From the sequence record PP180002: 52,961 nt of DNA. One strand, given 5' to 3'. The stretch comes from Escherichia phage mEp013. Shown here one piece after another: positions 61-43,387 of the stretch (position 1 is the first letter of the stretch; each line of letters begins with the position of its first letter). Position numbers and translations under genes: made by a program. The notes under the pieces are model-generated. The model was not told where the DNA came from. It made no database searches and saw only the letters and a list, made by a program, of their open reading frames with translations.

Positions 61-129
61 ATCGTGTCACATCGTTACCGCTTCACCTTGATTTTAAAAG
101 AAATATTTATTCTATCGTGTCATATCGTT
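61..129. repeat. two 16-bp direct repeats ATCGTGTCA(C/T)ATCGTT (61-76 and 114-129) upstream of int; candidate Int arm-type or regulatory sites
   Basis: Read directly; 15/16 identical copies 53 bp apart, related TCACATCGTG at 57-66. Confidence 0.35.
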
Positions 130-160
130 CCCCATTGTGTTACTATCCATGCGTAAAATG

Positions 161-182
161 TGTGTACCAAATAGTGACCAAA
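161..182. repeat. left copy of 22-bp direct repeat TGTGTACCAAATAGTGACCAAA (att-associated: core or Int arm site)
   Basis: 21/22 identical to 52891-52912; ends 3 nt before int ATG; itself two tandem ~11-mers GTG(T)ACCAAA. Confidence 0.45.
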
Positions 183-185
183 ATT

Positions 186-1385
186 ATGCTTACAGATACC
201 AAATTACGAAACATTCACGGCAAGCCATACGATGGCCCGGAAGAAGTACCGGACGCTGGCGGATTGTCTGCCAGGATAAGCCCGCGCGGAGTTATATCTT
301 TCCAGTACCGCTACCGATTCAACGGCAAGCCTCGACGGATGAAGATCGGCACATACGGAGAAATAACACTCAAGGAAGCGCGGGCGGCGGTGGCGGAGCA
401 TAAGGAAGTTCTAAACTCAGGTCGAGATCCATCGGTAGCAAAAAGAATGCGCCTTTCCCGCGTTACGACACGGGCAACGGTTGAGGATATTGTAATGGAG
501 TACATGGGATCGCCGCAGGCAAGGAACATGGTCAATTATAAGCAGGTTGAGGCCATGCTAGATAAGCACGTCATAAAACCATACGGTGGCTATATAGTCG
601 ATGATATGGACGCTATGATGTGGGAAGGTGTTTTTAGAAGGGTTGCTAATGGTGGCGCACCAGTTCAGGCAGGTATAGTTCTCAACAGAATGAAGGCCGT
701 AATAAAATACGCCATGCGCCGCCGCCGCGTGGATCGTGACGACATATCATTACTGTGCGTTAAAGACGTTGGCAAAAAACCAGCGCAAGGCAAGCGCGTT
801 TTGTCAATACAGGAGATCCACCATCTAATTAGCCTTGTAGACAGTTCAAAAATGGCGAGGCTGAATCAGATATTGATGAAGCTGATTATATTTACCGGGT
901 GCAGGACAAGCGAACTAACAAACGCAAGGCGAGAGCATTTCGATCTTGATAGCTGTGTGTGGACGGTTCCGGGTGCATTAAGTAAGAACAGGAATGAGTT
1001 TAAACGCGGCTTATCCGACGTTAGCGTGGCTTTATTGCGTGAGGCTATGGATCTGCATAGCTTTGATTTTGTCTTCGTTCCTGTGCTTTCTGGAAGGGAT
1101 GAAGCGGTGGACAGGAGCGTTCCTAAAACAGCAGCAAGGGATTTAATGATGAGGATGTGCGGCGAGCCGTGGTCGTGTCACGATCTACGCCGCACCGTGA
1201 GGACAAACCTTTCAGCGCTTGGCGTTGCGCCTCACGTCGCGGAAAAGGTTTTGGGGCATAAGCTGGCGGGGATGTTGGCTATATACGATCAGTATGACTA
1301 TGTGAGGGAACAAATAGAGGCGATGAATAAACTGGCTGATTATTACATGAAGCCCATTGATTTACAAAATGAAATAACGTCCTGA
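186..1385 (+). CDS. int: tyrosine recombinase, P4-type phage integrase
   Basis: N-terminus MLTDTKLRN..GGL and C-terminal HxLRRT-type region typical of P4-like integrases; ATG at 186 chosen inside longer ORF 117..1385. Confidence 0.9.
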   Translation: MLTDTKLRNIHGKPYDGPEEVPDAGGLSARISPRGVISFQYRYRFNGKPRRMKIGTYGEITLKEARAAVAEHKEVLNSGRDPSVAKRMRLSRVTTRATVEDIVMEYMGSPQARNMVNYKQVEAMLDKHVIKPYGGYIVDDMDAMMWEGVFRRVANGGAPVQAGIVLNRMKAVIKYAMRRRRVDRDDISLLCVKDVGKKPAQGKRVLSIQEIHHLISLVDSSKMARLNQILMKLIIFTGCRTSELTNARREHFDLDSCVWTVPGALSKNRNEFKRGLSDVSVALLREAMDLHSFDFVFVPVLSGRDEAVDRSVPKTAARDLMMRMCGEPWSCHDLRRTVRTNLSALGVAPHVAEKVLGHKLAGMLAIYDQYDYVREQIEAMNKLADYYMKPIDLQNEITS

Positions 1386-6445: not shown

Positions 6446-6982
6446 TCATTGACAGCAAACAATCTCTTTATATGCCTCTTCTACCATGTCGAATACTTCC
6501 GGCCTGTAATAGAAAAACTCATTGCTGCCATCAAATTTTACAGGAAAGTTAATTTTATAATTGCTGAAATATTTATGCATCGTGCTTTCTAGTTTATGTA
6601 TATTTTCGGTTGACCCTTCTAACGTTTTCACGATACACAAATCAGGGATTCTAACGCCTGCTTTATGTGCGCTTTTTAATATTTCATTTCTTCGCTCGTT
6701 ATCCTTAACGCTTACACCGATTTTCATTTGTGTAGGTAATTCCAGATCATCAACCATGATGTAAAGTTTGCCATACTCATAACTAAGGAAACCGTATTTC
6801 GCGCATTTTGGGCAGCCGCGCCCGCGCTTAAGGTCGCTAGGAGTAGCCGACCACTCATGATCACAAACCTTACAGCGGCATGATACTTTTGTTTTGCAAT
6901 TGATAATTTCTCCCAACACTTCAACATTGGGGTTAATTCTTGAGATAGCGGCAACTTGCTCCTTATGAGTTAACTTGCGCAT
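6446..6982 (-). CDS. zinc-ribbon plus GIY-YIG-like (T5orf172/MUG113-type) protein, single-repeat paralog of 39479..40789
   Basis: One LTHKEQVAAI..C.C..C.HEW..GCPKC repeat then GKLYIMVDD..KIGVS..ERRN..EFFYY domain shared with the 436-aa protein; ATG at 6982 has RBS AGGAG. Confidence 0.7.
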   Translation of the reverse strand: MRKLTHKEQVAAISRINPNVEVLGEIINCKTKVSCRCKVCDHEWSATPSDLKRGRGCPKCAKYGFLSYEYGKLYIMVDDLELPTQMKIGVSVKDNERRNEILKSAHKAGVRIPDLCIVKTLEGSTENIHKLESTMHKYFSNYKINFPVKFDGSNEFFYYRPEVFDMVEEAYKEIVCCQ

Positions 6983-7115
6983 TGTCATAGCTCCTAAAAA
7001 CGCATCAGACGCGCTACAACGCAAAAAATCCCACCGCGTAACCCACTTGTAAGGGTGCAGTGTCTTTTTTGCGCCAGAAGCGCAATCAGGTGGCTAATTT
7101 TTGATTTACAGACTG

Positions 7116-8610: not shown

Positions 8611-8915
8611 GTTTCTTTCTCCTATGGTTAGGTGAACGCGCGGGCGGGTATCCAATTAGCATTAGATAGCAGTGACTGACCGCTGAACAGATCCCGCCGT
8701 TGCGTGATATTTGTTTTTCGCTTCGCAGCGACACCGGGTTTTTAAAGAGCTTTTAAGGTATGTGCCTTTTGTGCTTTCCCTTATCTCTTTCCTTGCATCA
8801 TTGCAAGTTCGGCTTTACCTTGTCTGTAAGTTTACAGAATGGCGTTAACAGATCAAGGATTGAAAATTACATTTTGTGACTTGCATCAAAATTTTTTAGG
8901 TTATAGGGTAGCGAC

Positions 8916-9563
8916 ATGAAAACAAAATGGTATGACCTGGCAAAACAACTCATGCGGGCGCAGGGCATGAGTCAAGATTCATTGGCAGATCTCATGGGGA
9001 TCACTAAAGGCGGCTTGTCACACTGGCTTAACGGTCGCCGCGAGCCAAATCTTGAAGACATTGCGCGGATTATGCGGGCGCTTGGGCGTCGGCAGTTCAC
9101 TGTCACACATGATGGAATGGTCATTGATGACTCTGTTTCTAACACGTTGCCGGGAGCGCCACCGCGTGATTTAGGCAGTTACCCGGTTGTTGACTGGAAG
9201 GATGTAGTAAACAATATGGAAGATGCAAGGCGATCAACATTACCACACGTTACGACTAGCGTTATTTGTTCAGATGATAGTTATTGGCTGGTAGCTAAAG
9301 GCGAATCAATGAACGCGCCGCAAGGATTGAGTATACCAGCGGGGACGATGATACTTGTCGATCCGCACGCGCCAGCTATTGACGGAAAACTGGTTATAGC
9401 CCAACTGGAGGAGGGGCAGATACCGACGTTTAAACAGTTGATTATTGATGGAGGCAGAAAACTTTTGCGTTCACTGAATCCGTTGTATCCGCCAATCCCT
9501 ATGAATCCAGAATCTAAAATCATAGGCGTGGTAGTGGATGCGAAGATCGTAAACCTGCCATAA
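8916..9563 (+). CDS. cI: CI-type repressor (HTH_XRE plus S24 LexA-like peptidase domain)
   Basis: N-terminal HTH (MSQDSLADLMGITKGGLSHWLNG); C-terminal autocleavage domain with GESM Ser and downstream Lys. Confidence 0.85.
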   Translation: MKTKWYDLAKQLMRAQGMSQDSLADLMGITKGGLSHWLNGRREPNLEDIARIMRALGRRQFTVTHDGMVIDDSVSNTLPGAPPRDLGSYPVVDWKDVVNNMEDARRSTLPHVTTSVICSDDSYWLVAKGESMNAPQGLSIPAGTMILVDPHAPAIDGKLVIAQLEEGQIPTFKQLIIDGGRKLLRSLNPLYPPIPMNPESKIIGVVVDAKIVNLP

Positions 9564-9686: not shown

Positions 9687-9715
9687 TTGACTCGGTGTTT
9701 TACGGGGCGTATATT
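9687..9715 (+). promoter_or_regulatory. PL-like sigma70 promoter (TTGACT-17-TATATT)
   Basis: Near-consensus hexamers with 17-nt spacer; flanked by 8-bp inverted repeat TTGACTCG/CGAGTCAA; TATACAAAATGG motif directly upstream. Confidence 0.65.
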
Positions 9716-9756: not shown

Positions 9757-9794
9757 TGCTCTTTAATAATCTGGTCAGCCGCTGGAAGTGCGGC
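9757..9794 (+). promoter_or_regulatory. nutL-like site: boxA (TGCTCTTTAATAA) plus boxB hairpin (GCCGC-TGGAAGT-GCGGC)
   Basis: boxA nearly identical to rrn/lambda boxA consensus; 5-bp stem 7-nt loop hairpin 8 nt downstream; sits between promoter and N-like gene. Confidence 0.55.
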
Positions 9795-9850: not shown

Positions 9851-10141
9851 ATGACAGTTACAATCATGTATGGCAAATGTGACAGTAAACTGAATGCCAG
9901 GGAACGCAGAAGAATAAAAAGAGAAAACGAAAGAAAATCATCACCTGCAATCAATAAAACGGACAATGTGGATAAAGCCATTCGCTTTGCAAACGAGGAA
10001 AGATGCAAACCCAATGGCATTAAAGAACGTCGCAAAGGATCAGTTAAATGGTATAAGGAAAACGAAAGCGGCAACTACTACCACGCAACGCAACCACGCC
10101 AGTTAGGGGAAAAACCCCTTGATAAAGTCCGTTACCATTAA
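9851..10141 (+). CDS. N-like antitermination protein (arginine-rich motif)
   Basis: 96 aa, basic; N-terminal ARM NARERRRIKRENERK; first gene after PL/nutL; strong RBS TAAGGAG. Confidence 0.5.
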   Translation: MTVTIMYGKCDSKLNARERRRIKRENERKSSPAINKTDNVDKAIRFANEERCKPNGIKERRKGSVKWYKENESGNYYHATQPRQLGEKPLDKVRYH

Positions 10142-23929: not shown

Positions 23930-24387
23930 AGGCGTTAATTATCGCCGCTGTTGTTTGCATCATTGCCAGCCTTACCGCAGTAACATGCCATTACCAGAGT
24001 GAGGCGACAAGGTTACAGGAAGAATTAACGACCACGCAAGGCGCACTGAAAACGGCAAGTAACACTATTCAGCAGATGAAGGAGCGAAACGCCGAACTGT
24101 CAAAACTTGATAAGAGGTATCACGATGAGATTAAAGCAATCAGATCTGACATTGCCGATCTGCGCACTGGTATTGATAACGGCACTATCAGGCTGCGCGT
24201 CAACGCAATACCCGTGCGAGTGTCCGACTCCACCGGATCCGCCAGCACCATTAATGGAGCCTCCTGTAGACTCACTCCCGACGCTGAATCGGCTTATCTA
24301 TCCCTCAGAGAACAACTAAAAGAGAAAGACGCGAAGATAACCGCGCTTCAGGGATACATCAAAACGCAGTGCTTACGCAAAGAATAA
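23905..24387 (+). CDS. Rz-like i-spanin
   Basis: N-terminal TM helix then coiled-coil; overlaps endolysin 3' end; contains embedded Rz1 frame. Confidence 0.7.
24125..24319 (+). CDS. Rz1-like o-spanin lipoprotein, embedded in Rz in +1 frame
   Basis: Lipobox LSGC; proline-rich mature region ([16 protein letters not shown]). Confidence 0.7.
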   Translation: MRLKQSDLTLPICALVLITALSGCASTQYPCECPTPPDPPAPLMEPPVDSLPTLNRLIYPSENN

Positions 24388-35820: not shown

Positions 35821-35831
35821 GGGTGAATACT

Positions 35832-36512
35832 ATGATCCATGTTCGTACCGGACAATTTGCGGCTGTGGTGAACGGTAAGCGCTATAAATTTAACCCGTGT
35901 TTCGCTGCGATGGCTAAAATCGGTAATGACAGGGAGCTTGTGGAATGTTTCGCAACCATCCACGGTAGCAAATACCCTTCACGATTACCTACAGATCCAG
36001 ACCTCCGCAATCGCATTATGGCGCGGTGTTATGGTGAGATAGTGCAAACGTCTATACACATCCTGAAATGTTGCTCAGACGACGAAACAGGCCCGTTATT
36101 AGGCGAATGCTGGTTCACTCCTTCGGGTAAATTGAGATTAAAACCGGGAATAATGCCAGTTGATGATGTTATTACGCTGGCGCAACACTGCATGTACCAC
36201 GGTTTAATTGGTGACAGCCCTGAAGAGGTCGCAAGCGATAGACGGGAAGGTGAATACAAACCAACGTTCGACATACTGGAGTTTGTTTATTCTGCCGTTG
36301 CTCACCTGGGGTTATCAGAATCAGAAGCGTGGAATATGACAATGACCGGATATAGGGCCGCTGTGCGTGCTAAAACGCCACCAGAAGCAAGAAGCAAACA
36401 AAAACGACCAAATGTATTGCTTGATAAAAAGGCTTATGACGATGGAATGAGGGAGGCTATGGAGGTGCTGGAAAGACTAAAAAAATCCAAAGAACAAAAA
36501 GCCCGGAATTAG
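35832..36512 (+). CDS. tail assembly chaperone (G/GT-like)
   Basis: Position immediately upstream of tape measure region; RBS AGGG. Confidence 0.55.
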   Translation: MIHVRTGQFAAVVNGKRYKFNPCFAAMAKIGNDRELVECFATIHGSKYPSRLPTDPDLRNRIMARCYGEIVQTSIHILKCCSDDETGPLLGECWFTPSGKLRLKPGIMPVDDVITLAQHCMYHGLIGDSPEEVASDRREGEYKPTFDILEFVYSAVAHLGLSESEAWNMTMTGYRAAVRAKTPPEARSKQKRPNVLLDKKAYDDGMREAMEVLERLKKSKEQKARN

Positions 36513-36526
36513 CCGGGCCTTTCTTT
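36496..36526. terminator. bidirectional terminator between convergent genes
   Basis: GCCCGG-AATTA-GCCGGGC flanked by A-run and T-run. Confidence 0.6.
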
Positions 36527-36899
36527 AATTGAAATCTTTGACGGCAGCGCCTGGTGAGCTGTGATTAATTGTGCCATATACAGTCTTCGCCTTGCTGCGA
36601 TCTTTCCATTCTTTCAGAATACAATTATCAAACTTCGCTATAACCCTTGAAGGGGATAACTCTTCAACATCCATGTATGTAAAACCTACCGTACTTGTTA
36701 CCGACCACCATACGTGATAGCTGTACTTGCCGTCATACTCAATCCTTTGAGGCTCACCCATGATTTTAGTAACCTGCTCGCAAGTCATTCCAGCCTGCAA
36801 CTTGTTATCAGCCAACCTAACAAAATCAGTTGATCTTGCACACCCAGCGATCGACAGAGCAATAACACCAATCAGCGCGGCTTTTAATACGTTTTTCAT
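36525..36899 (-). CDS. lipoprotein with BamE/SmpA-OmlA-like domain (moron)
   Basis: Signal peptide with lipobox LSIAGC; LQAGMTCEQVTKIMGEPQ BamE-like motif; ATG at 36899 inside ORF 36525..37097. Confidence 0.6.
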   Translation of the reverse strand: MKNVLKAALIGVIALSIAGCARSTDFVRLADNKLQAGMTCEQVTKIMGEPQRIEYDGKYSYHVWWSVTSTVGFTYMDVEELSPSRVIAKFDNCILKEWKDRSKAKTVYGTINHSSPGAAVKDFN

Positions 36900-36910
36900 A
36901 ATTAGCACAT

Positions 36911-37090
36911 TTAAGCCATAAACCAGCGGATTAAAGCATCCAGCGCACCCCAGCCAGGGATGAACGCCTTTTGACCTGCGATCTGCATCATGAGCATTGC
37001 ATTTGGAGCTTGCCAGTAAAGCACGGTCATGTGCACACAGATTGCAAGAGCAATGGCAACCACCAGGATTTTGTTGATTAAACTTTTCAT
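36911..37090 (-). CDS. small membrane protein (59 aa, moron)
   Basis: Hand-translated MKSLINKILVVAIALAICVHMTVLYWQ...; RBS GAGGTG; 11 nt upstream of lipoprotein gene. Confidence 0.45.
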   Translation of the reverse strand: MKSLINKILVVAIALAICVHMTVLYWQAPNAMLMMQIAGQKAFIPGWGALDALIRWFMA

Positions 37091-37216
37091 AATTCACCTC
37101 GTTTTTGTTTGATTTCTTAACTGTTCCCTATGGCTTCTTTATACAAAATGGAGTCGCTGAAGTAAAGCCATTTTGTATAAAATAGAGACACAGATCACAA
37201 AACCGGAGTAGCAATC

Positions 37217-39424
37217 ATGACCACAAATGTAGGCACGATCGAATATACCGTTGATGCAAAAACCGAACGGTTGCTCGTAGCTCAACGCAAGGCGGAAGAC
37301 TCGTTTGATAAAATCGAGCAGGGCGCTAAACGTACCGATAAATCAGTTCGGTCACTTAACACCACGATAAGTAATTTATCCAAAGCTGTGAACATTGGAA
37401 TGATGGTCATGGCTGCAAAAAAATTCCTGGAGATCGCAGATAACGTGAATCTGCTACGCGCCAGGGTGACGCGACTATCGAGTGGCATTGCTGACGCAAA
37501 ATCGAATTTTGACGGGATTATTCAGATATCGAATCGCACAGGGATGAGTGTTCAAAGCACCGGGAAGCTGTGGGAAAGCCTAAAGGCCAGCCTACAGGAT
37601 ACCAGTGCGACAAGTCAGCAGGTATTGCAACTTACCGACTCGCTTCAGAAAATAGGCCGTATCGGAGGTAGCTCCTCAGATGAAATGTCAAACGCACTTC
37701 GCCAGTTAGGACAATCCCTGACGGGTGGCATTGTTCGCGCGGAAGAATACAACTCTGTGCTTGAAAACATGCCCGAAGTATGGCGACGCGTCGCTAAACA
37801 AATGGGGATCTCGATGGGTGAACTTCGCGCAAGAATGCTTGATGGTAAGCTCACCGCCGAGGATGTTACCAACTCAATTCTTGCTGGCGCAGAAGATATA
37901 GAGAAGGACTTCGCACAGCTGCCAACAACAACAGATCAGGCATTTAACGAGCTAAAAAACAACTTCGATCTGTTAATTGACACGCTAAACCAAACGCTTG
38001 GAGTGTCTGATTTGGTAGTTGCTGGTATACAGGCTGTTTCTAGTGAAGTTCAGATATTATCAGGTTGGTTTAAGTCCCTGGCGAGCGATAGCACGTCATT
38101 AACTGATAAATTGTGGCTATTGGCTGGGGCGTTCGAGGGTATAGTACCTGGGCTTAGTTTGTTCCGCTCTCAAGCGAAACAGGTTGGATGGTTTGGCGAT
38201 GGAGATCAGGAGTTTGTTTCTACGCTTCCCACGGGGCAAGCTGGTGTAAGTCGCATAACATTTAAGCCTCAACCTGGTGGTAGAGGTAAGAACGGAAAAG
38301 GTAAAAAATCCGGCAAGTCAGAAGCCGAACGCCTTGCGGAACAGGGTGTACGCGTTTCAGATACATATAACGAAGATTCAGCAGCAATGCGTAAAGCGCT
38401 TGAGTCACAAAAAGCTCTGGATGCTGCATTTAAAGCCGGGAAAATAACCATGCTTGAATACAAAGGCGCAATGAAGGGAATTGGTGATGAATTGCGCGAA
38501 ACTCTAGCAGAAATTAACGACCCGATCAATAGTCTGCAAGAAAAATGGGACAAAATGATTCCATCACTGGATCAGAAACGCGGCGAGCTGGACCCAATAC
38601 AGCAGGCGCAAAATGAATGGACCATACGCAAGCAAATGCTGGAAGATCTTGGCGCTACCGAGCAATACATGAAGGAGCAAGAAAGAGCGCACGCACAAGA
38701 AATGCTATCCCTTGAATGGGAGCGATATAAAGCACAGTCAATGAGCTACAAACTATTGGGTGATACCGTTGATGCAATGGGAGGATCTGCAACAAATGCG
38801 CTTGTGGGCCTGGTTAACGGCACTCAAAGTTGGCAGCAGGCGCTGGCTAACATTGGCAATACAATCCTTTCCTCCGTTATCGGTACACTTGTTCAAATGG
38901 GTGCTGAATGGGTTAAACAGCAATTGATCGGTGAGGCCGCCAGCGCTGCGGCAACAGCTAAAGCACTAGCCGAGGCTACTGCATTAGGATCTGCGTGGGC
39001 CACTCCTGCATACCTGGCAAACGTTGCCACGATGGGCGGAGCGGCGACCGTGGGGGGCACGAGTCTTGCCACTGGTGTGGCTGGGGCTAAGGCGCTTGGG
39101 CTTGCTGGCGCTCGTTATAACGGCGGTGCGGTTAATGGTGGCAATCTTTATAGGGTCGGGGAAGGTGGAAAAATGGAGCTGTTCACCACTACTGACGGGA
39201 AACAGTACATGATCCCCGGAGAAAACGGGCGTATCACTCCTAATCGCGACCTTGTCAGCGGTGGTGGCGTCACAATCAATAGTCCGATCACCATTAACAC
39301 TACGAATGGCTTCAGTGAGGAAGACTCAAGACGTCTGGAAGACACCATGAAGCGCGTTGCTATGGGAGTAGTTAGAGAGCAAAGTTCAAGGCCCGGAGGA
39401 CTTATCCAACCGCGAAGAAAATAA
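37217..39424 (+). CDS. H: tail tape measure protein
   Basis: 735 aa, Gly/Ala-rich C-terminal region, position before M/L/K/I/J. Confidence 0.85.
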   Translation: MTTNVGTIEYTVDAKTERLLVAQRKAEDSFDKIEQGAKRTDKSVRSLNTTISNLSKAVNIGMMVMAAKKFLEIADNVNLLRARVTRLSSGIADAKSNFDGIIQISNRTGMSVQSTGKLWESLKASLQDTSATSQQVLQLTDSLQKIGRIGGSSSDEMSNALRQLGQSLTGGIVRAEEYNSVLENMPEVWRRVAKQMGISMGELRARMLDGKLTAEDVTNSILAGAEDIEKDFAQLPTTTDQAFNELKNNFDLLIDTLNQTLGVSDLVVAGIQAVSSEVQILSGWFKSLASDSTSLTDKLWLLAGAFEGIVPGLSLFRSQAKQVGWFGDGDQEFVSTLPTGQAGVSRITFKPQPGGRGKNGKGKKSGKSEAERLAEQGVRVSDTYNEDSAAMRKALESQKALDAAFKAGKITMLEYKGAMKGIGDELRETLAEINDPINSLQEKWDKMIPSLDQKRGELDPIQQAQNEWTIRKQMLEDLGATEQYMKEQERAHAQEMLSLEWERYKAQSMSYKLLGDTVDAMGGSATNALVGLVNGTQSWQQALANIGNTILSSVIGTLVQMGAEWVKQQLIGEAASAAATAKALAEATALGSAWATPAYLANVATMGGAATVGGTSLATGVAGAKALGLAGARYNGGAVNGGNLYRVGEGGKMELFTTTDGKQYMIPGENGRITPNRDLVSGGGVTINSPITINTTNGFSEEDSRRLEDTMKRVAMGVVREQSSRPGGLIQPRRK

Positions 39425-39478: not shown

Positions 39479-40789
39479 TTACGCTGCTTTTATAATTTCT
39501 TCATACTTATCTTCCACCATGCTAAAAACTTCTGGTCTATAGTAGAAAAATTCGCAACTACCATCAAATTTTACGGGGAAGTTAATTTTGTAATTACTAA
39601 GTTTTTTGTGTATCGCGCCCTCTAGTTCAAAGATATTTTGTGTCGGACCTTCTAATGTTTTTACGATATGTAAATCAGGAATTGTCACACCAGCCTTATG
39701 TGCACTGCTTAGTATTCTATTCCTTCGTTCGTTTTCCTTAACACTTACCCCTACTTTCATTAGCGTTGGCACTTCCATATCGTCAACCATGATATAAAGT
39801 TTGCCGCGTTCGTAGGATAAAAAACCTTTTTTCGCACATTTTAAACATCCGCTACCTCCTTTAAGTTTTTGCGGCGTGGTTCTCCACTTATAGCCACACA
39901 CTTTACATAGACACGATACTTTGGTTTTGTTTCCTGTTATCTTACCAACAACTTTGATATTAGGGTTGATGTTGGCAATGGCTTTTATTTGTTCTTCATG
40001 CGATATTCTTCGCGCTTGTGCTCTTTTTGATGCCGCGCACTTCGGGCAACCAGTGCCTTTTTTAAGGCTGGCTGGAGTAGTTAACCATTCATGACCGCAA
40101 TACTTACAGCTGCATAACGTCCTTGTAGTATTGCTAATAATTTTCCCTAACACCTCAACGCCAGGGCTAGTTTTCGCAATAGCTGTAACCTGTTCTTTGT
40201 GTGATAATTTCATCTTCCCTGAACATTTCGGGCAGCCAGTACCATGCTTGAGATTATTTGGAGTGGCTGACCATTCATAATTGCAAATCTTACATTTGCA
40301 TAATACGTTTTTTAAACTTGAAGTAATTTTTCCCAAGATTTCAATATTGCTGTTAACCTTCGCAATGGATGCAACTTGTTCTTCATGCGTTAATCTTCTA
40401 TCTGTACATTTCGGGCAACCTTGCCCGATTTTAAGTGTTTCAGGTCTAGCCATCCATTCGTGATTACAAACCTTGCAATGGCATAATACTTTTGTTTTAT
40501 TATTAATAATTTTCCCTAATACCTTAACATCAGGATTAACTTTAGCAATAATTGCAATCTGTTCTTCATGTGGTAATGCTCGTTTTTGCGCTCTTTTTGA
40601 TGCCGCGCACTTCGGGCAACCAATACCACGCTTAAGATCAGCAGGTCTACCAAACCATTCGTGATTACAAGTTTTGCAGCAGCATGATACTTTTTCCATA
40701 TTCCCGGTAATTACCCCTATCACCTCGATGTTGGGGTTAACTTTTGCAATGGCGGCAACTTGTTCTTCGTGTGTTAATTTTTTTGTCAT
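39479..40789 (-). CDS. five tandem zinc-ribbon repeats plus GIY-YIG-like (T5orf172/MUG113-type) C-terminal domain
   Basis: Five ~62-aa repeats (L.HEEQ.A.IAKVNP...C.C..C.HEW...GCPKC) then GKLYIMVDD..KVGVS..ERRN..EFFYY domain; paralog of 6446..6982. Confidence 0.7.
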   Translation of the reverse strand: MTKKLTHEEQVAAIAKVNPNIEVIGVITGNMEKVSCCCKTCNHEWFGRPADLKRGIGCPKCAASKRAQKRALPHEEQIAIIAKVNPDVKVLGKIINNKTKVLCHCKVCNHEWMARPETLKIGQGCPKCTDRRLTHEEQVASIAKVNSNIEILGKITSSLKNVLCKCKICNYEWSATPNNLKHGTGCPKCSGKMKLSHKEQVTAIAKTSPGVEVLGKIISNTTRTLCSCKYCGHEWLTTPASLKKGTGCPKCAASKRAQARRISHEEQIKAIANINPNIKVVGKITGNKTKVSCLCKVCGYKWRTTPQKLKGGSGCLKCAKKGFLSYERGKLYIMVDDMEVPTLMKVGVSVKENERRNRILSSAHKAGVTIPDLHIVKTLEGPTQNIFELEGAIHKKLSNYKINFPVKFDGSCEFFYYRPEVFSMVEDKYEEIIKAA

Positions 40790-43335: not shown

Positions 43336-43387
43336 CCGTTTTGGTATGATTTAGCGTGACGTCGATCACAAATTACAAGGTGATAAA

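What the first reader, a model, noticed from the sequence alone, without database searches (positions are those of the whole stretch)
36525..37090. Lipoprotein plus small membrane protein moron between tail chaperone and tape measure genes
A two-gene minus-strand unit (59-aa membrane protein, then a 124-aa lipoprotein with lipobox LSIAGC and a BamE/SmpA-OmlA-like motif) sits between a bidirectional terminator and the TATACAAAATGG inverted repeat. Envelope-targeted morons in this position often mediate superinfection exclusion or host fitness; a BamE-like fold could interfere with outer-membrane assembly or receptor availability.
Basis: partly seen in the sequence, partly recalled or inferred. 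Interest (0 to 1): 0.55.

Follow-up and report, generated by a model that had tools for sequence, protein, structure and literature searches.

The report
Swappable envelope-protein cassette beside tape measure gene
A temperate E. coli phage carries, between two tail genes, a small backwards-facing cassette for an inner-membrane mini-protein and a BamE-shaped outer-membrane lipoprotein; both genes are real, but this is an ordinary accessory ("moron") slot that related phages fill with other exported proteins, and its function is untested.

Summary
A 59-aa single-pass membrane protein (36911..37090, minus) and a 124-aa lipoprotein (36525..36899, minus; lipobox IAG|C, Ala at +2) lie between a strong minus-strand terminator and a perfect 14-bp inverted repeat. 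They are flanked by a DUF6246 tail gene and the tape measure gene of an mEp021-like (mEpimmI) coliphage.

- **Both genes are under purifying selection:** dN/dS is 0.18 and about 0.05.
- **The two genes are not an obligate pair.** In relatives the lipoprotein sits alone, with a VasI/TagO-like lipoprotein, or with a 138-aa secreted protein. The small protein occurs without it in another E. coli element.
- **The inverted repeat and terminator are conserved backbone** in all 21 related loci examined. The cargo between them varies, and every variant includes an exported or membrane protein.
- **The position matches the HK97 gp15 exclusion moron**, but there is no homology to gp15.
- **The phage already carries a proven receptor-type exclusion lipoprotein** (Lpp010 type, 98.8% identical).

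The most likely role is envelope-level protection of lysogens, but this is inferred. I class it as a new member of a known kind, of moderate-to-low interest.

The parts
36496..36523 (-). Intrinsic terminator of the cassette. The hairpin core at 36501-36518 also forms on the plus strand, but with a poor T-run. It overlaps the 3' end of the convergent DUF6246 gene.
   Evidence: 11 pairs, 6 of them GC, followed by a T-run.: -16.6 kcal/mol and z -3.3 on the minus strand, -12.6 kcal/mol on the plus strand. It is backbone: the 96% match to mEp515 runs to 36520.
36525..36899 (-). 124-aa lipoprotein gene. The product has a signal peptide with lipobox IAG|C20 and Ala at +2, which predicts sorting to the outer membrane. 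The mature 105-aa domain has a BamE/OsmE/BLIP-like fold, paired cysteines C40/C93 and a conserved C-terminal tail.
36911..37090 (-). 59-aa small membrane protein gene. The product has an N-terminal transmembrane helix (residues 8-26), lysines on the N-terminal side, and a C-terminal segment of about 33 aa with the invariant motif GQKAFIPGWG-LDALIRWF.
   Evidence: Searches give the ORF and hydropathy. The AF2 model has three helices at pLDDT about 72. Homologues are 97%, 68% and 63% identical. dN/dS is 0.18. No Pfam, PHROG, NCBIfam or PADLOC family matches.
37095..37100 (-). Shine-Dalgarno sequence GAGGTG, 4 nt upstream of the ATG of the 59-aa gene.
   Evidence: Read directly from the sequence.
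37138..37166 (-). Sigma-70-like promoter candidate for the cassette: -35 TTTACT (37166-37161), 17-nt spacer, -10 TATAAA (37143-37138). It lies inside the inverted repeat.
   Evidence: Read from the sequence. The match is 4/6 plus 5/6, but the strict scan does not list it because the last -10 base is A. The -10 and the 20 nt downstream are conserved in all relatives whatever the cargo, and partly in a distant relative. The layout '12-mer, 1-2 nt, -35, 17 nt, -10' is the same at the early promoter at 9687-9715 and at the promoter-like site upstream of the repressor gene at 8845-8873.
37138..37181 (.). Perfect 14-bp inverted repeat TTTATACAAAATGG / CCATTTTGTATAAA with a 16-nt gap. It is a conserved backbone element and holds two copies of the genome-wide 12-mer TWTACAAAATGK.
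   Evidence: One search gives the arms. The pair occurs with the same spacing in all 21 related loci (alignment). The 12-mer has 8 exact sites in the window against 0.07 expected. In relatives the innermost arm base changes G to T on one arm without compensation. That fits a DNA-binding site better than an RNA stem.
35823..36512 (+). Left flank: DUF6246 gene, downstream of the tail tube gene and in the position of a tail-assembly chaperone. It converges on the cassette.
   Evidence: Pfam DUF6246 at E 9e-54. It is 96% identical in DNA to mEp515.
37217..39424 (+). Right flank: tape measure protein gene, divergent from the cassette.
   Evidence: Pfam TMP_3 at E 1.6e-51 and PHROG tape measure families.

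Best explanation
**What it is.** The region is the cargo of an accessory-gene slot found throughout the mEp021-like (mEpimmI) coliphages. The slot lies between the DUF6246 tail gene and the tape measure gene.

The slot has a conserved frame. On one side is a palindromic control region that contains a sigma-70-like promoter reading leftwards. On the other side is a strong terminator. Between them the gene content varies from phage to phage. In this phage the cargo is two independent modules.

1. **A 59-aa bitopic inner-membrane protein.** I infer that its N-terminus faces the cytoplasm and its conserved C-terminal segment of about 33 residues faces the periplasm.
2. **A 124-aa lipoprotein.** I infer that it is lipidated at Cys20, sorted by Lol to the inner leaflet of the outer membrane (Ala at +2), and folds in the periplasm. 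The fold is a disulphide-stabilised BamE/OsmE/BLIP-type protein-binding domain.

**What is shown.** The genes, their selection, the fold, the slot architecture and the independent assortment of the modules are shown by tool results.

**What is inferred.**
- The cassette is transcribed from its own promoter, antisense to the late operon.
- The two products act separately by binding envelope components.
- They protect the carrier cell against incoming phages at a step after adsorption, during passage of the tail tip and DNA across the periplasm and inner membrane.

In this reading the small protein is a positional and physico-chemical analogue of HK97 gp15. The lipoprotein acts from the outer-membrane side, as Llp, Cor, Lpp or Ltp-type exclusion lipoproteins do.
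For: **Anatomy.**
- The ORFs, Shine-Dalgarno sequence, terminator and inverted repeat are all present.
- Both genes are under purifying selection.
- The lipobox is conserved in all homologues.

**Slot.**
- The control region and terminator are conserved while the cargo differs in mEp515, mEp021, mEp044, MagusPhagus, E. coli prophages, IMG/VR contigs and Logan contigs.
- Every variant includes at least one protein with a signal peptide, lipobox or transmembrane helix. These were judged by inspection.
- The lipoprotein keeps the terminator-proximal place even in a relative only 48% identical.

**Independence of the modules.**
- The lipoprotein occurs with a VasI/TagO-like lipoprotein, with a 138-aa secreted protein, or with no other exported partner beside it.
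- The small protein occurs with a different secreted protein or with none, in an element next to eutA.

**Link to exclusion.**
- HK97 gene 15 occupies the same chaperone/tape-measure position. It encodes a small inner-membrane protein that blocks genome injection in a way that depends on the tail of the infecting phage (PMC3594210).
- mEpimmI phages use lipoproteins for exclusion (PMC11893012).
- The small-protein family sits next to a tape measure gene of the same family (52% identity) in both of its known contexts.
- In the eutA-side element, no tail genes follow the tape measure gene in the stretch read, and the small-protein gene is still under purifying selection. That suggests a benefit to the host, although I did not examine the rest of the element.
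Against: - No experiment or expression data bear on this cassette.
- Neither protein is homologous to a known exclusion protein. hhalign probability is 0.3% against HK97 gp15. The mature domains give no alignment with Lpp010. PADLOC gives no hit.
- The phage already encodes an Lpp010-type exclusion lipoprotein.
- Very strong purifying selection on the mature lipoprotein (dN/dS about 0.05) fits a conserved host target rather than an arms race with variable phage parts.
- The promoter candidate lacks the conserved T at the last -10 position and fails the strict scan.
- The same 12-mer abuts the -35 of the early promoter and of the promoter-like site upstream of the repressor gene. If it is the repressor's operator, the cassette could be silent in lysogens.
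- GC content is not foreign: 0.43-0.47 against 0.457 for the genome.
Confidence: 0.4

Rival explanations
1. The cassette is a host-fitness or immunity cargo. The BamE/BLIP-fold lipoprotein would be a periplasmic inhibitor that neutralises an envelope-acting toxin or enzyme. Candidates are a type VI secretion effector, a colicin or a peptidoglycan hydrolase. It would help lysogens in bacterial competition rather than against phages.
For: - In most E. coli prophages the lipoprotein's neighbour is a VasI/TagO-family lipoprotein, a type VI secretion-associated family. Pfam VasI scores 57.6 bits against a threshold of 26.5.
- dN/dS of about 0.05 fits a conserved bacterial target.
Against: - The fold matches are modest and the fold is generic; BamE and OsmE score equally well.
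- No toxin gene is nearby.
- The window has no VasI-like gene.
- The family is known only from this phage lineage's slot, not from T6SS or colicin loci.
Confidence: 0.2
2. The cassette is a lytic-cycle gene set rather than a lysogenic-conversion unit. The 12-mer would be an operator of the phage's own regulator, so the cassette would be expressed with the early genes after infection or induction. Its role might then be to stop progeny or superinfecting particles wasting themselves on the infected cell (as T5 Llp is thought to do; my own recall, not checked here), or to condition the envelope.
For: - The 12-mer TWTACAAAATGK lies 1-2 nt upstream of the -35 at three sites: the strong early promoter at 9687-9715, which is followed by a boxA-like site and an N-like gene; the promoter-like site upstream of the repressor gene at 8845-8873; and the cassette promoter.
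- Apart from boxA and A/T runs, it is the only 8-mer or longer sequence shared by the two immunity-region control regions that lies beside their promoter elements.
- It also occurs upstream of the Lpp exclusion gene.
Against: - Which protein binds the 12-mer is unknown, as is whether it activates or represses.
- A site abutting the -35 is also the classic position for activation, as with lambda CI at PRM. That would mean expression in lysogens.
- The small-protein gene is kept under selection next to eutA in an element where no tail genes follow the tape measure gene, which argues for a function outside the lytic cycle.
Confidence: 0.2
3. The lipoprotein is a BamE mimic. It would dock on the BAM complex and reduce the insertion or display of outer-membrane receptors.
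Against: - It falls below the Pfam BamE cut-off (17.9 against 23.2 bits), and no NCBIfam BamE model matches.
- OsmE and BLIP-like proteins match as well or better.
- It has family-specific features that BamE lacks: the Cys pair, the TY-DVEEL-P-RVI-KFD-C motif and a conserved tail.
- General interference with BAM would be costly to the host.
Confidence: 0.07
4. The two proteins form one obligate complex that spans the periplasm, with an inner-membrane partner and an outer-membrane lipoprotein, and work only together.
For: The genes are adjacent, 11 nt apart, with no clear Shine-Dalgarno sequence for the second gene. This suggests coupled translation. The same pair recurs in one other assembly (L007).
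Against: - Among 15 or more loci that carry the lipoprotein, only two have the small protein.
- The small-protein family occurs with a different exported protein, or with none, in 5 or more other contigs.
- Spanin-like or other trans-envelope pairs normally co-inherit.
Confidence: 0.06

Closest known systems
HK97 gene 15 moron (gp15, YebO-like superinfection exclusion protein)
   Same: It occupies the same genomic position, between the tail-assembly chaperone gene(s) and the tape measure gene (PMC3594210). It has its own terminator. Its product is a protein of about 60 aa with one N-terminal transmembrane helix.
   Different: There is no sequence relationship (hhalign probability 0.3%). HK97 gene 15 is on the same strand as the tail genes, whereas this cassette is on the opposite strand. 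This cassette also carries a second gene. Exclusion has not been tested here.
Exclusion lipoproteins: mEpimmI Lpp021 and Lpp010 (PMC11893012). From general knowledge only, also Cor (phi80/N15), Llp (T5) and Ltp (TP-J34)
   Same: They are small phage-encoded lipoproteins with a classical lipobox, encoded within the tail gene region on the opposite strand. The same phage family demonstrably uses lipoproteins for exclusion.
BamE / OsmE / BLIP (SmpA_OmlA-like) fold family
   Same: It shares the two-helix plus beta-sheet fold, the GMT-x-x-QV-x-x-x-G-x-P motif and the lipoprotein anchor.
   Different: It falls below the curated cut-offs of Pfam BamE and NCBIfam OsmE. It has a family-specific Cys pair and C-terminal tail. 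It is confined to one phage lineage.
Phage accessory-gene hotspots with a conserved frame and variable cargo (the 'moron' concept of Juhala and Hendrix)
   Same: Conserved flanks (promoter region and terminator) surround cargo that differs between otherwise collinear genomes.
   Different: The slot was never empty in the 20 or more relatives examined. GC content is not atypical. The cargo is strikingly restricted to envelope-targeted proteins.

Membership tests
BamE (Pfam PF04355; BAM complex lipoprotein) | Sequence score at or above the Pfam gathering threshold | tested here: not met
   17.9 bits against 23.2, covering residues 32-50 only. No NCBIfam BamE model matched.
BamE (Pfam PF04355; BAM complex lipoprotein) | Two-helix plus three-stranded (or larger) sheet fold on a lipid-anchored protein | tested here: met
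BamE (Pfam PF04355; BAM complex lipoprotein) | Binds BamD/BamA as a subunit of the BAM complex | not testable with these tools
   This needs co-purification or genetics.
OsmE (NCBIfam NF008423) | Score at or above the curated cut-off | tested here: not met
phrog_18614 (phage protein family of unknown function) | Full-length profile match | tested here: met
   E 1.5e-54, residues 1-124 on profile positions 5-128 of 129.
Moron (independent transcription unit added to a phage genome) | Own terminator | tested here: met
Moron (independent transcription unit added to a phage genome) | Own promoter, active from the repressed prophage | tested here: inconclusive
   The candidate is TTTACT-17-TATAAA, conserved in relatives. 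It fails the strict consensus scan. No expression data are available.
Moron (independent transcription unit added to a phage genome) | Absent from related genomes whose flanking genes are otherwise collinear | tested here: met
   mEp515, mEp021, mEp044, MagusPhagus and E. coli strains M15 and MIN12 lack both genes at this site and carry other cargo.
Moron (independent transcription unit added to a phage genome) | Base composition different from the neighbours | tested here: not met
   GC is 0.429 and 0.472, against 0.457 for the genome.
HK97 gp15 / YebO family | Sequence homology to gp15 | tested here: not met
   hhalign probability 0.3%. I did not compare E. coli YebO itself.
HK97 gp15 / YebO family | Small inner-membrane protein encoded between the tail chaperone and tape measure genes | tested here: met
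   PMC3594210. Membrane location is predicted, not measured.
mEpimmI Lpp exclusion lipoproteins (types A and C, PMC11893012) | Homology of the mature domain to Lpp010 | tested here: not met
   BLASTP of mature against mature found no alignment. The hhalign hit covers mainly the signal peptide. I did not compare Lpp021 (type A).
mEpimmI Lpp exclusion lipoproteins (types A and C, PMC11893012) | Excludes phages when expressed | not testable with these tools
   This needs infection assays.
Bacterial lipoprotein (Lgt/LspA/Lnt substrate) | Signal peptide with lipobox [LVI][ASTVI][GAS]C, conserved in homologues | tested here: met
   IAGC here; LTGC, LAGC and LASC in homologues. Processing itself is not testable here.

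The most novel reading that the evidence does not exclude
The DUF6246/tape-measure junction of the mEpimmI phages would be a dedicated cassette-exchange locus for envelope-targeted proteins.

In this reading the locus is framed by a conserved palindromic control region, whose 12-mer (TWTACAAAATGK) is the binding site of a phage regulator. That regulator would also act at the repressor promoter, the early promoter and the Lpp promoter. Accessory envelope genes would then be wired directly into the immunity circuit.

Within the locus, the BamE-fold lipoprotein and the 59-aa protein would be two new, unrelated classes of post-adsorption exclusion factor.
Probability: 0.2. Interest if true: 0.55.

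Novelty: new member of a known kind. Interest (0 to 1): 0.36.

Why it matters
If the inference holds, this phage family offers a compact natural library of envelope-acting proteins. At least ten cargo combinations sit in one promoter/terminator frame.

Testing them could do two things. It could reveal new ways in which prophages block phage entry or protect the cell envelope. It could also assign a first function to a BamE/BLIP-fold phage lipoprotein (phrog_18614) and to an orphan 59-aa membrane protein.

The recurring 12-mer may identify the still-undescribed operator or regulatory site of the mEpimmI immunity system.

None of this overturns current ideas. Morons at this position and lipoprotein-mediated exclusion are both established.

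Tried and rejected
- **Family searches for the 59-aa protein.** Pfam, PHROGs, NCBIfam and PADLOC gave nothing. So did tblastn against 50,697 phage records, GTDB species representatives and IMG/VR. blastn against 5,426 complete E. coli genomes also found nothing. Only the 5.8-billion-protein search found three relatives.
- **Plasmid search** of the region found no match.
- **Homology to HK97 gp15** was rejected.
- **Homology of the lipoprotein to the window's Lpp010-type protein.** The hhalign hit at 85% probability rests mainly on the signal peptide. The mature domains give no alignment, so I rejected it.
- **Foldseek against viral structures** returned only weak matches to uncharacterised phage lipoproteins. 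The AlphaFold-database library was unavailable.
- **Rfam scan of 36300-37400** found nothing above any gathering score. The rimP-leader hit at the terminator scores 29 bits against 47 and is just the hairpin.
- **The inverted repeat as an RNA stem or terminator.** It folds at -16.4 and -14.7 kcal/mol on the two strands, but it has an AT-rich stem and no T-run. One arm changes without compensation in relatives. I prefer a DNA site.
- **The inverted repeat as a plus-strand promoter for the tape measure gene.** The -10 is good but the -35 is poor (GTCGCT), so this is left open.
- **Co-variation of cargo with tape measure length** (735, 780 or 1,050 aa). No pattern appeared.
- **The 190-aa ORF at 36525..37097** was rejected as an artefact.
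- **The four lipoprotein types in PMC11893012.** I tried to learn whether they include this protein, but the figure is not held and the supplements do not list sequences.
Full report
**What the window is.** The 52,961-bp window looks like a complete temperate siphophage genome of the mEp021-like group, called mEpimmI in PMC11893012.
- The DUF6246 gene next to the finding is 96% identical in DNA to mEp515. It is 78-85% identical to mEp044, mEp021 and MagusPhagus.
- Gene order runs from an integrase-sized ORF (117..1385, not scanned against any family library) and a CI-like repressor (8916..9563) to the tail fibre genes. In between are replication, recombination, lysis, head and tail genes.

**Checking the observation.**
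- The 59-aa ORF lies at 36911..37090 on the minus strand. A GAGGTG ribosome-binding site sits 4 nt before its ATG.
- The 124-aa ORF lies at 36525..36899 on the minus strand and starts MKNVLKAALIGVIALSIAG|C. That is a textbook lipobox, with Ala at +2.
- Immediately after its stop codon is an 11-bp GC-rich hairpin with a T-run, at -16.6 kcal/mol and z -3.3. The plus-strand version of the hairpin is shorter with a poor T-run. This makes sense because late transcription has to continue into the tape measure gene.
- Upstream of the 59-aa gene is a perfect 14-bp inverted repeat, at 37138-37151 and 37168-37181, with a 16-nt gap.
- The flanks are a DUF6246 gene, which follows the tail tube gene and so occupies the chaperone position, and the tape measure gene.

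**Are the ORFs genes?** Yes.
- The 59-aa protein has relatives at 97%, 68% and 63% identity. Against the 68% relative, dN/dS is 0.18. In the last 21 aligned codons there are 7 synonymous changes and 1 non-synonymous.
- The lipoprotein gene differs by about 19% in DNA from the common E. coli prophage allele. The mature protein is nevertheless almost unchanged, with dN/dS about 0.05 and dS about 1.2.
- The 190-aa ORF that overlaps both genes is an artefact, because homologues start at MKN.

**What the lipoprotein is.**
- *Sequence evidence.* On its own it matches Pfam BamE only weakly: 17.9 bits against 23.2, over residues 32-50. It matches phrog_18614, a family of unknown function, over its full length at E 1.5e-54. 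An exhaustive HMMER search of 1.84 billion representative proteins found 14 hits. Seven of the nine I scanned (the single-domain and other shorter hits) carry Pfam BamE above threshold. A profile built from the family finds weak hits (E 0.02-0.2), mostly BamE/OmlA, TpgA and BLIP chains, among solved structures.
- *Conclusion.* It belongs to the BamE/OsmE/BLIP fold class. By the curated cut-offs it is not a BamE or OsmE family member.
- *Family-specific features.* Two cysteines, C40 and C93, are both present in every family member, including one only 48% identical. Both are absent in the remote BamE-like relatives. This suggests a periplasmic disulphide bond. The family also has a conserved C-terminal tail that the model leaves largely low-confidence.

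**What the small protein is.**
- It has one strongly hydrophobic helix at residues 8-26, with lysines on the N-terminal side.
- This is followed by about 33 residues that the model builds as two short helices. They contain the invariant stretch GQKAFIPGWG-LDALIRWF.
- By the positive-inside rule the conserved C-terminal part should face the periplasm. This is an inference.
- It has no family assignment in any library and is extremely rare.

**The surroundings change the picture.**

*Frame and cargo.* In all 21 related loci that I fetched, the inverted repeat is present with the same spacing. About 20 nt on its cassette side and about 30 nt on its tape-measure side are also conserved, as is the terminator. 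What lies between differs from phage to phage.

| Source | Cargo in the slot |
|---|---|
| Window and L007 | 59-aa membrane protein + 124-aa lipoprotein |
| Most E. coli prophages and IMG/VR contigs | 219-aa VasI/TagO-family lipoprotein + the lipoprotein |
| L003 (E. coli MLI107) | 29-aa ORF + VasI/TagO-family lipoprotein + the lipoprotein |
| L008 | 29-aa ORF + the lipoprotein |
| L010 | 28-aa ORF + 138-aa secreted protein + the lipoprotein |
| mEp021, MagusPhagus | 137-138-aa secreted protein |
| mEp515, E. coli MIN12 | 29-aa ORF (annotated in mEp515) + 119-aa secreted protein |
| E. coli M15 | 165-aa secreted protein |
| mEp044 | two small membrane proteins |
| L026, a distant metagenomic relative | 91-aa protein + 118-aa anchored protein + a 48%-identical lipoprotein |

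Every variant contains at least one protein with a signal peptide, lipobox or transmembrane helix. I judged these by inspection, because no signal-peptide predictor was available.

*Position of the lipoprotein.* When present, the lipoprotein is always the gene next to the terminator.

*The small protein elsewhere.* The small protein's other relatives sit in a different element next to eutA in E. coli assemblies. There the gene is downstream of a tape measure gene that is 52% identical to the window's. It follows a 20-aa hydrophobic ORF, and is followed either by an unrelated 123-aa secreted protein or by nothing.

*What follows.* The two genes are therefore independent modules, not an obligate pair. 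The inverted repeat and terminator form the frame of a family-wide cargo slot.

**The control region.**
- On the minus strand the inverted repeat contains TTTACT (37166-37161), a 17-nt spacer and TATAAA (37143-37138). This is a 4/6 plus 5/6 match to the sigma-70 consensus. The strict scan does not list it because the last -10 base is A.
- The -10 and the sequence downstream of it are conserved in all relatives and are recognisable in the distant relative.
- The 12-mer of the repeat, TWTACAAAATGK, occurs 8 times in the window against 0.07 expected. Looser copies cluster in the immunity region and upstream of the Lpp gene.
- At three places the layout is the same: 12-mer, 1-2 nt, -35, 17 nt, -10. 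These are:
  - the strong early promoter at 9687-9715, which is followed by a boxA-like TGCTCTTTAA and an arginine-rich N-like ORF;
  - the promoter-like site at 8845-8873 that reads into the repressor gene;
  - the cassette promoter.
- Apart from boxA and A/T runs, the 12-mer core is the only shared sequence lying beside the promoter elements of the two immunity-region control regions.
- I conclude that the 12-mer is probably the binding site of a phage regulator. I cannot tell which protein binds it, or whether it activates or represses. This leaves open whether the cassette is expressed in lysogens.

**How it most likely works.**

*Shown:*
- two selected genes for envelope proteins;
- a BamE/BLIP-type protein-binding fold;
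- a conserved promoter-like region and a terminator;
- independent assortment of the modules;
- a position equivalent to HK97 gene 15, which PMC3594210 places between the chaperone and tape measure genes.

HK97 gp15 is a small inner-membrane protein. According to PMC3594210 it blocks genome injection in a way that depends on the tail of the infecting phage.

*Inferred:*
- transcription from the cassette's own promoter;
- lipidation and outer-membrane sorting of the lipoprotein;
- the topology of the small protein;
- action by binding envelope components;
- a role in protecting the carrier cell against incoming phages at a step after adsorption.

I put this functional reading at about 0.4.

*Points against it:*
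- Neither protein is homologous to gp15 or to Lpp010.
- No defence-system model matches.
- The phage already carries an Lpp010-type lipoprotein at 49859..50107 (98.8% identical). Lpp010 was shown to exclude LamB-dependent mEp phages and lambda (PMC11893012).
- The very strong purifying selection on the lipoprotein points to a conserved target.

*Rivals:*
- a periplasmic immunity or inhibitor role against bacterial toxins, suggested by the fold and by the VasI/TagO neighbour in relatives (0.2);
- a lytic-cycle role under repressor control (0.2);
- BAM mimicry (0.07);
- an obligate two-protein complex (0.06).

**Comparison with the known, and novelty.**
- In position and kind this is a moron, like HK97 gene 15.
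- In chemistry it resembles the lipoprotein exclusion systems.
- In fold the lipoprotein belongs with BamE, OsmE and BLIP.
- It fails the sequence-membership tests for BamE, OsmE, gp15 and Lpp010.
- The mEpimmI paper, as far as its text and supplements could be searched, describes neither this slot nor the 12-mer.

I class the finding as a new member of a known kind. It is a solid, ordinary accessory cassette with some worthwhile side observations. I score interest at 0.36.

Noticed in passing
window 5293, 6433, 9674, 17704, 17771, 37140, 37168, 50172 (exact); looser copies at 8831, 8870, 8919, 10140, 41658, 43275, 50202, 50232: The 12-mer TWTACAAAATGK occurs 8 times against 0.07 expected, almost always between genes. 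At three sites it lies 1-2 nt upstream of a -35 hexamer: the early promoter at 9687, the promoter-like site upstream of the repressor gene at 8845, and the cassette promoter. Copies also precede the plus-strand tail genes that follow each minus-strand accessory block. It is probably the site of an undescribed phage regulator.
   Followed up: partly
window 49859..50107 (-): An 82-aa lipoprotein lies directly after the J-like tail tip gene. It is 98.8% identical to mEp010 Lpp010, which was shown to exclude LamB-dependent mEp phages and lambda (PMC11893012). Its C-terminal part is also 73-77% identical to a lipoprotein of CAjan/Seurat-like lytic phages.
   Followed up: partly
window 24125..24319 (+): A third lipobox ORF of 64 aa, proline-rich after the Cys, is embedded in a longer ORF in the lysis region. 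It looks like an Rz1-type outer-membrane spanin.
   Followed up: no
window 39479..40789 (-) and 6446..7024 (-): A 436-aa protein has five treble-clef zinc-ribbon repeats (DUF4379/CapR) and a C-terminal T5orf172 (GIY-YIG-like) domain. Its GC is low (0.386) and it lies on the minus strand just after the tape measure gene. A shorter relative lies next to one of the 12-mer sites. These may be homing-endonuclease-like or DNA-binding accessory genes.
   Followed up: no
window 9757-9767 and 9851..10141 (+); mirror copy at 8742-8750 (-): boxA-like sequences (TGCTCTTTAA) follow both early promoters. An arginine-rich 96-aa ORF resembling an N-type antiterminator follows the rightward one. This fits the reported Nus dependence of these phages.
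   Followed up: no
L006, L027-L030 (E. coli assemblies, next to eutA/eutH): An element at the eutA side of the eut operon, which I recall (not checked here) as the CPZ-55 prophage site of K-12, carries a tape measure gene 52% identical to the window's. No tail genes follow it in the stretch read. Instead there is a promoter-like region, a 20-aa hydrophobic ORF, the 58-aa homologue of the small protein and a terminator. In L006 there is an extra 123-aa secreted protein.
   Followed up: partly
L003-L005, L009, L011-L018 (relatives; not in the window): In most E. coli prophages of this family the gene upstream of the lipoprotein is a 219-aa lipoprotein of the VasI/TagO family (Pfam VasI 57.6 bits). 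This is a type VI secretion-associated family of unknown function, found here inside a phage tail module.
   Followed up: partly
L001 5107-5196, L010 3369-3455 and aligned regions of L002, L003, L008 (relatives; deleted in the window): A conserved 28-29-aa ORF (MKNVNYHPSEHERYADFIEEMLKALKNKN) with a strong ribosome-binding site is the first gene of the slot in several relatives. It is missing from the window.
   Followed up: no
window 37192-37202 and 50231-50241 (+); similar at about 43356-43366: The sequence AGATCACAAAA, which contains a GATC site, lies 15-45 nt upstream of the start codons of the tape measure gene and the tail fibre gene. A close variant precedes the 43388 tail gene. As an 11-mer it is not statistically exceptional. 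It may be a degenerate copy of the 12-mer.
   Followed up: partly
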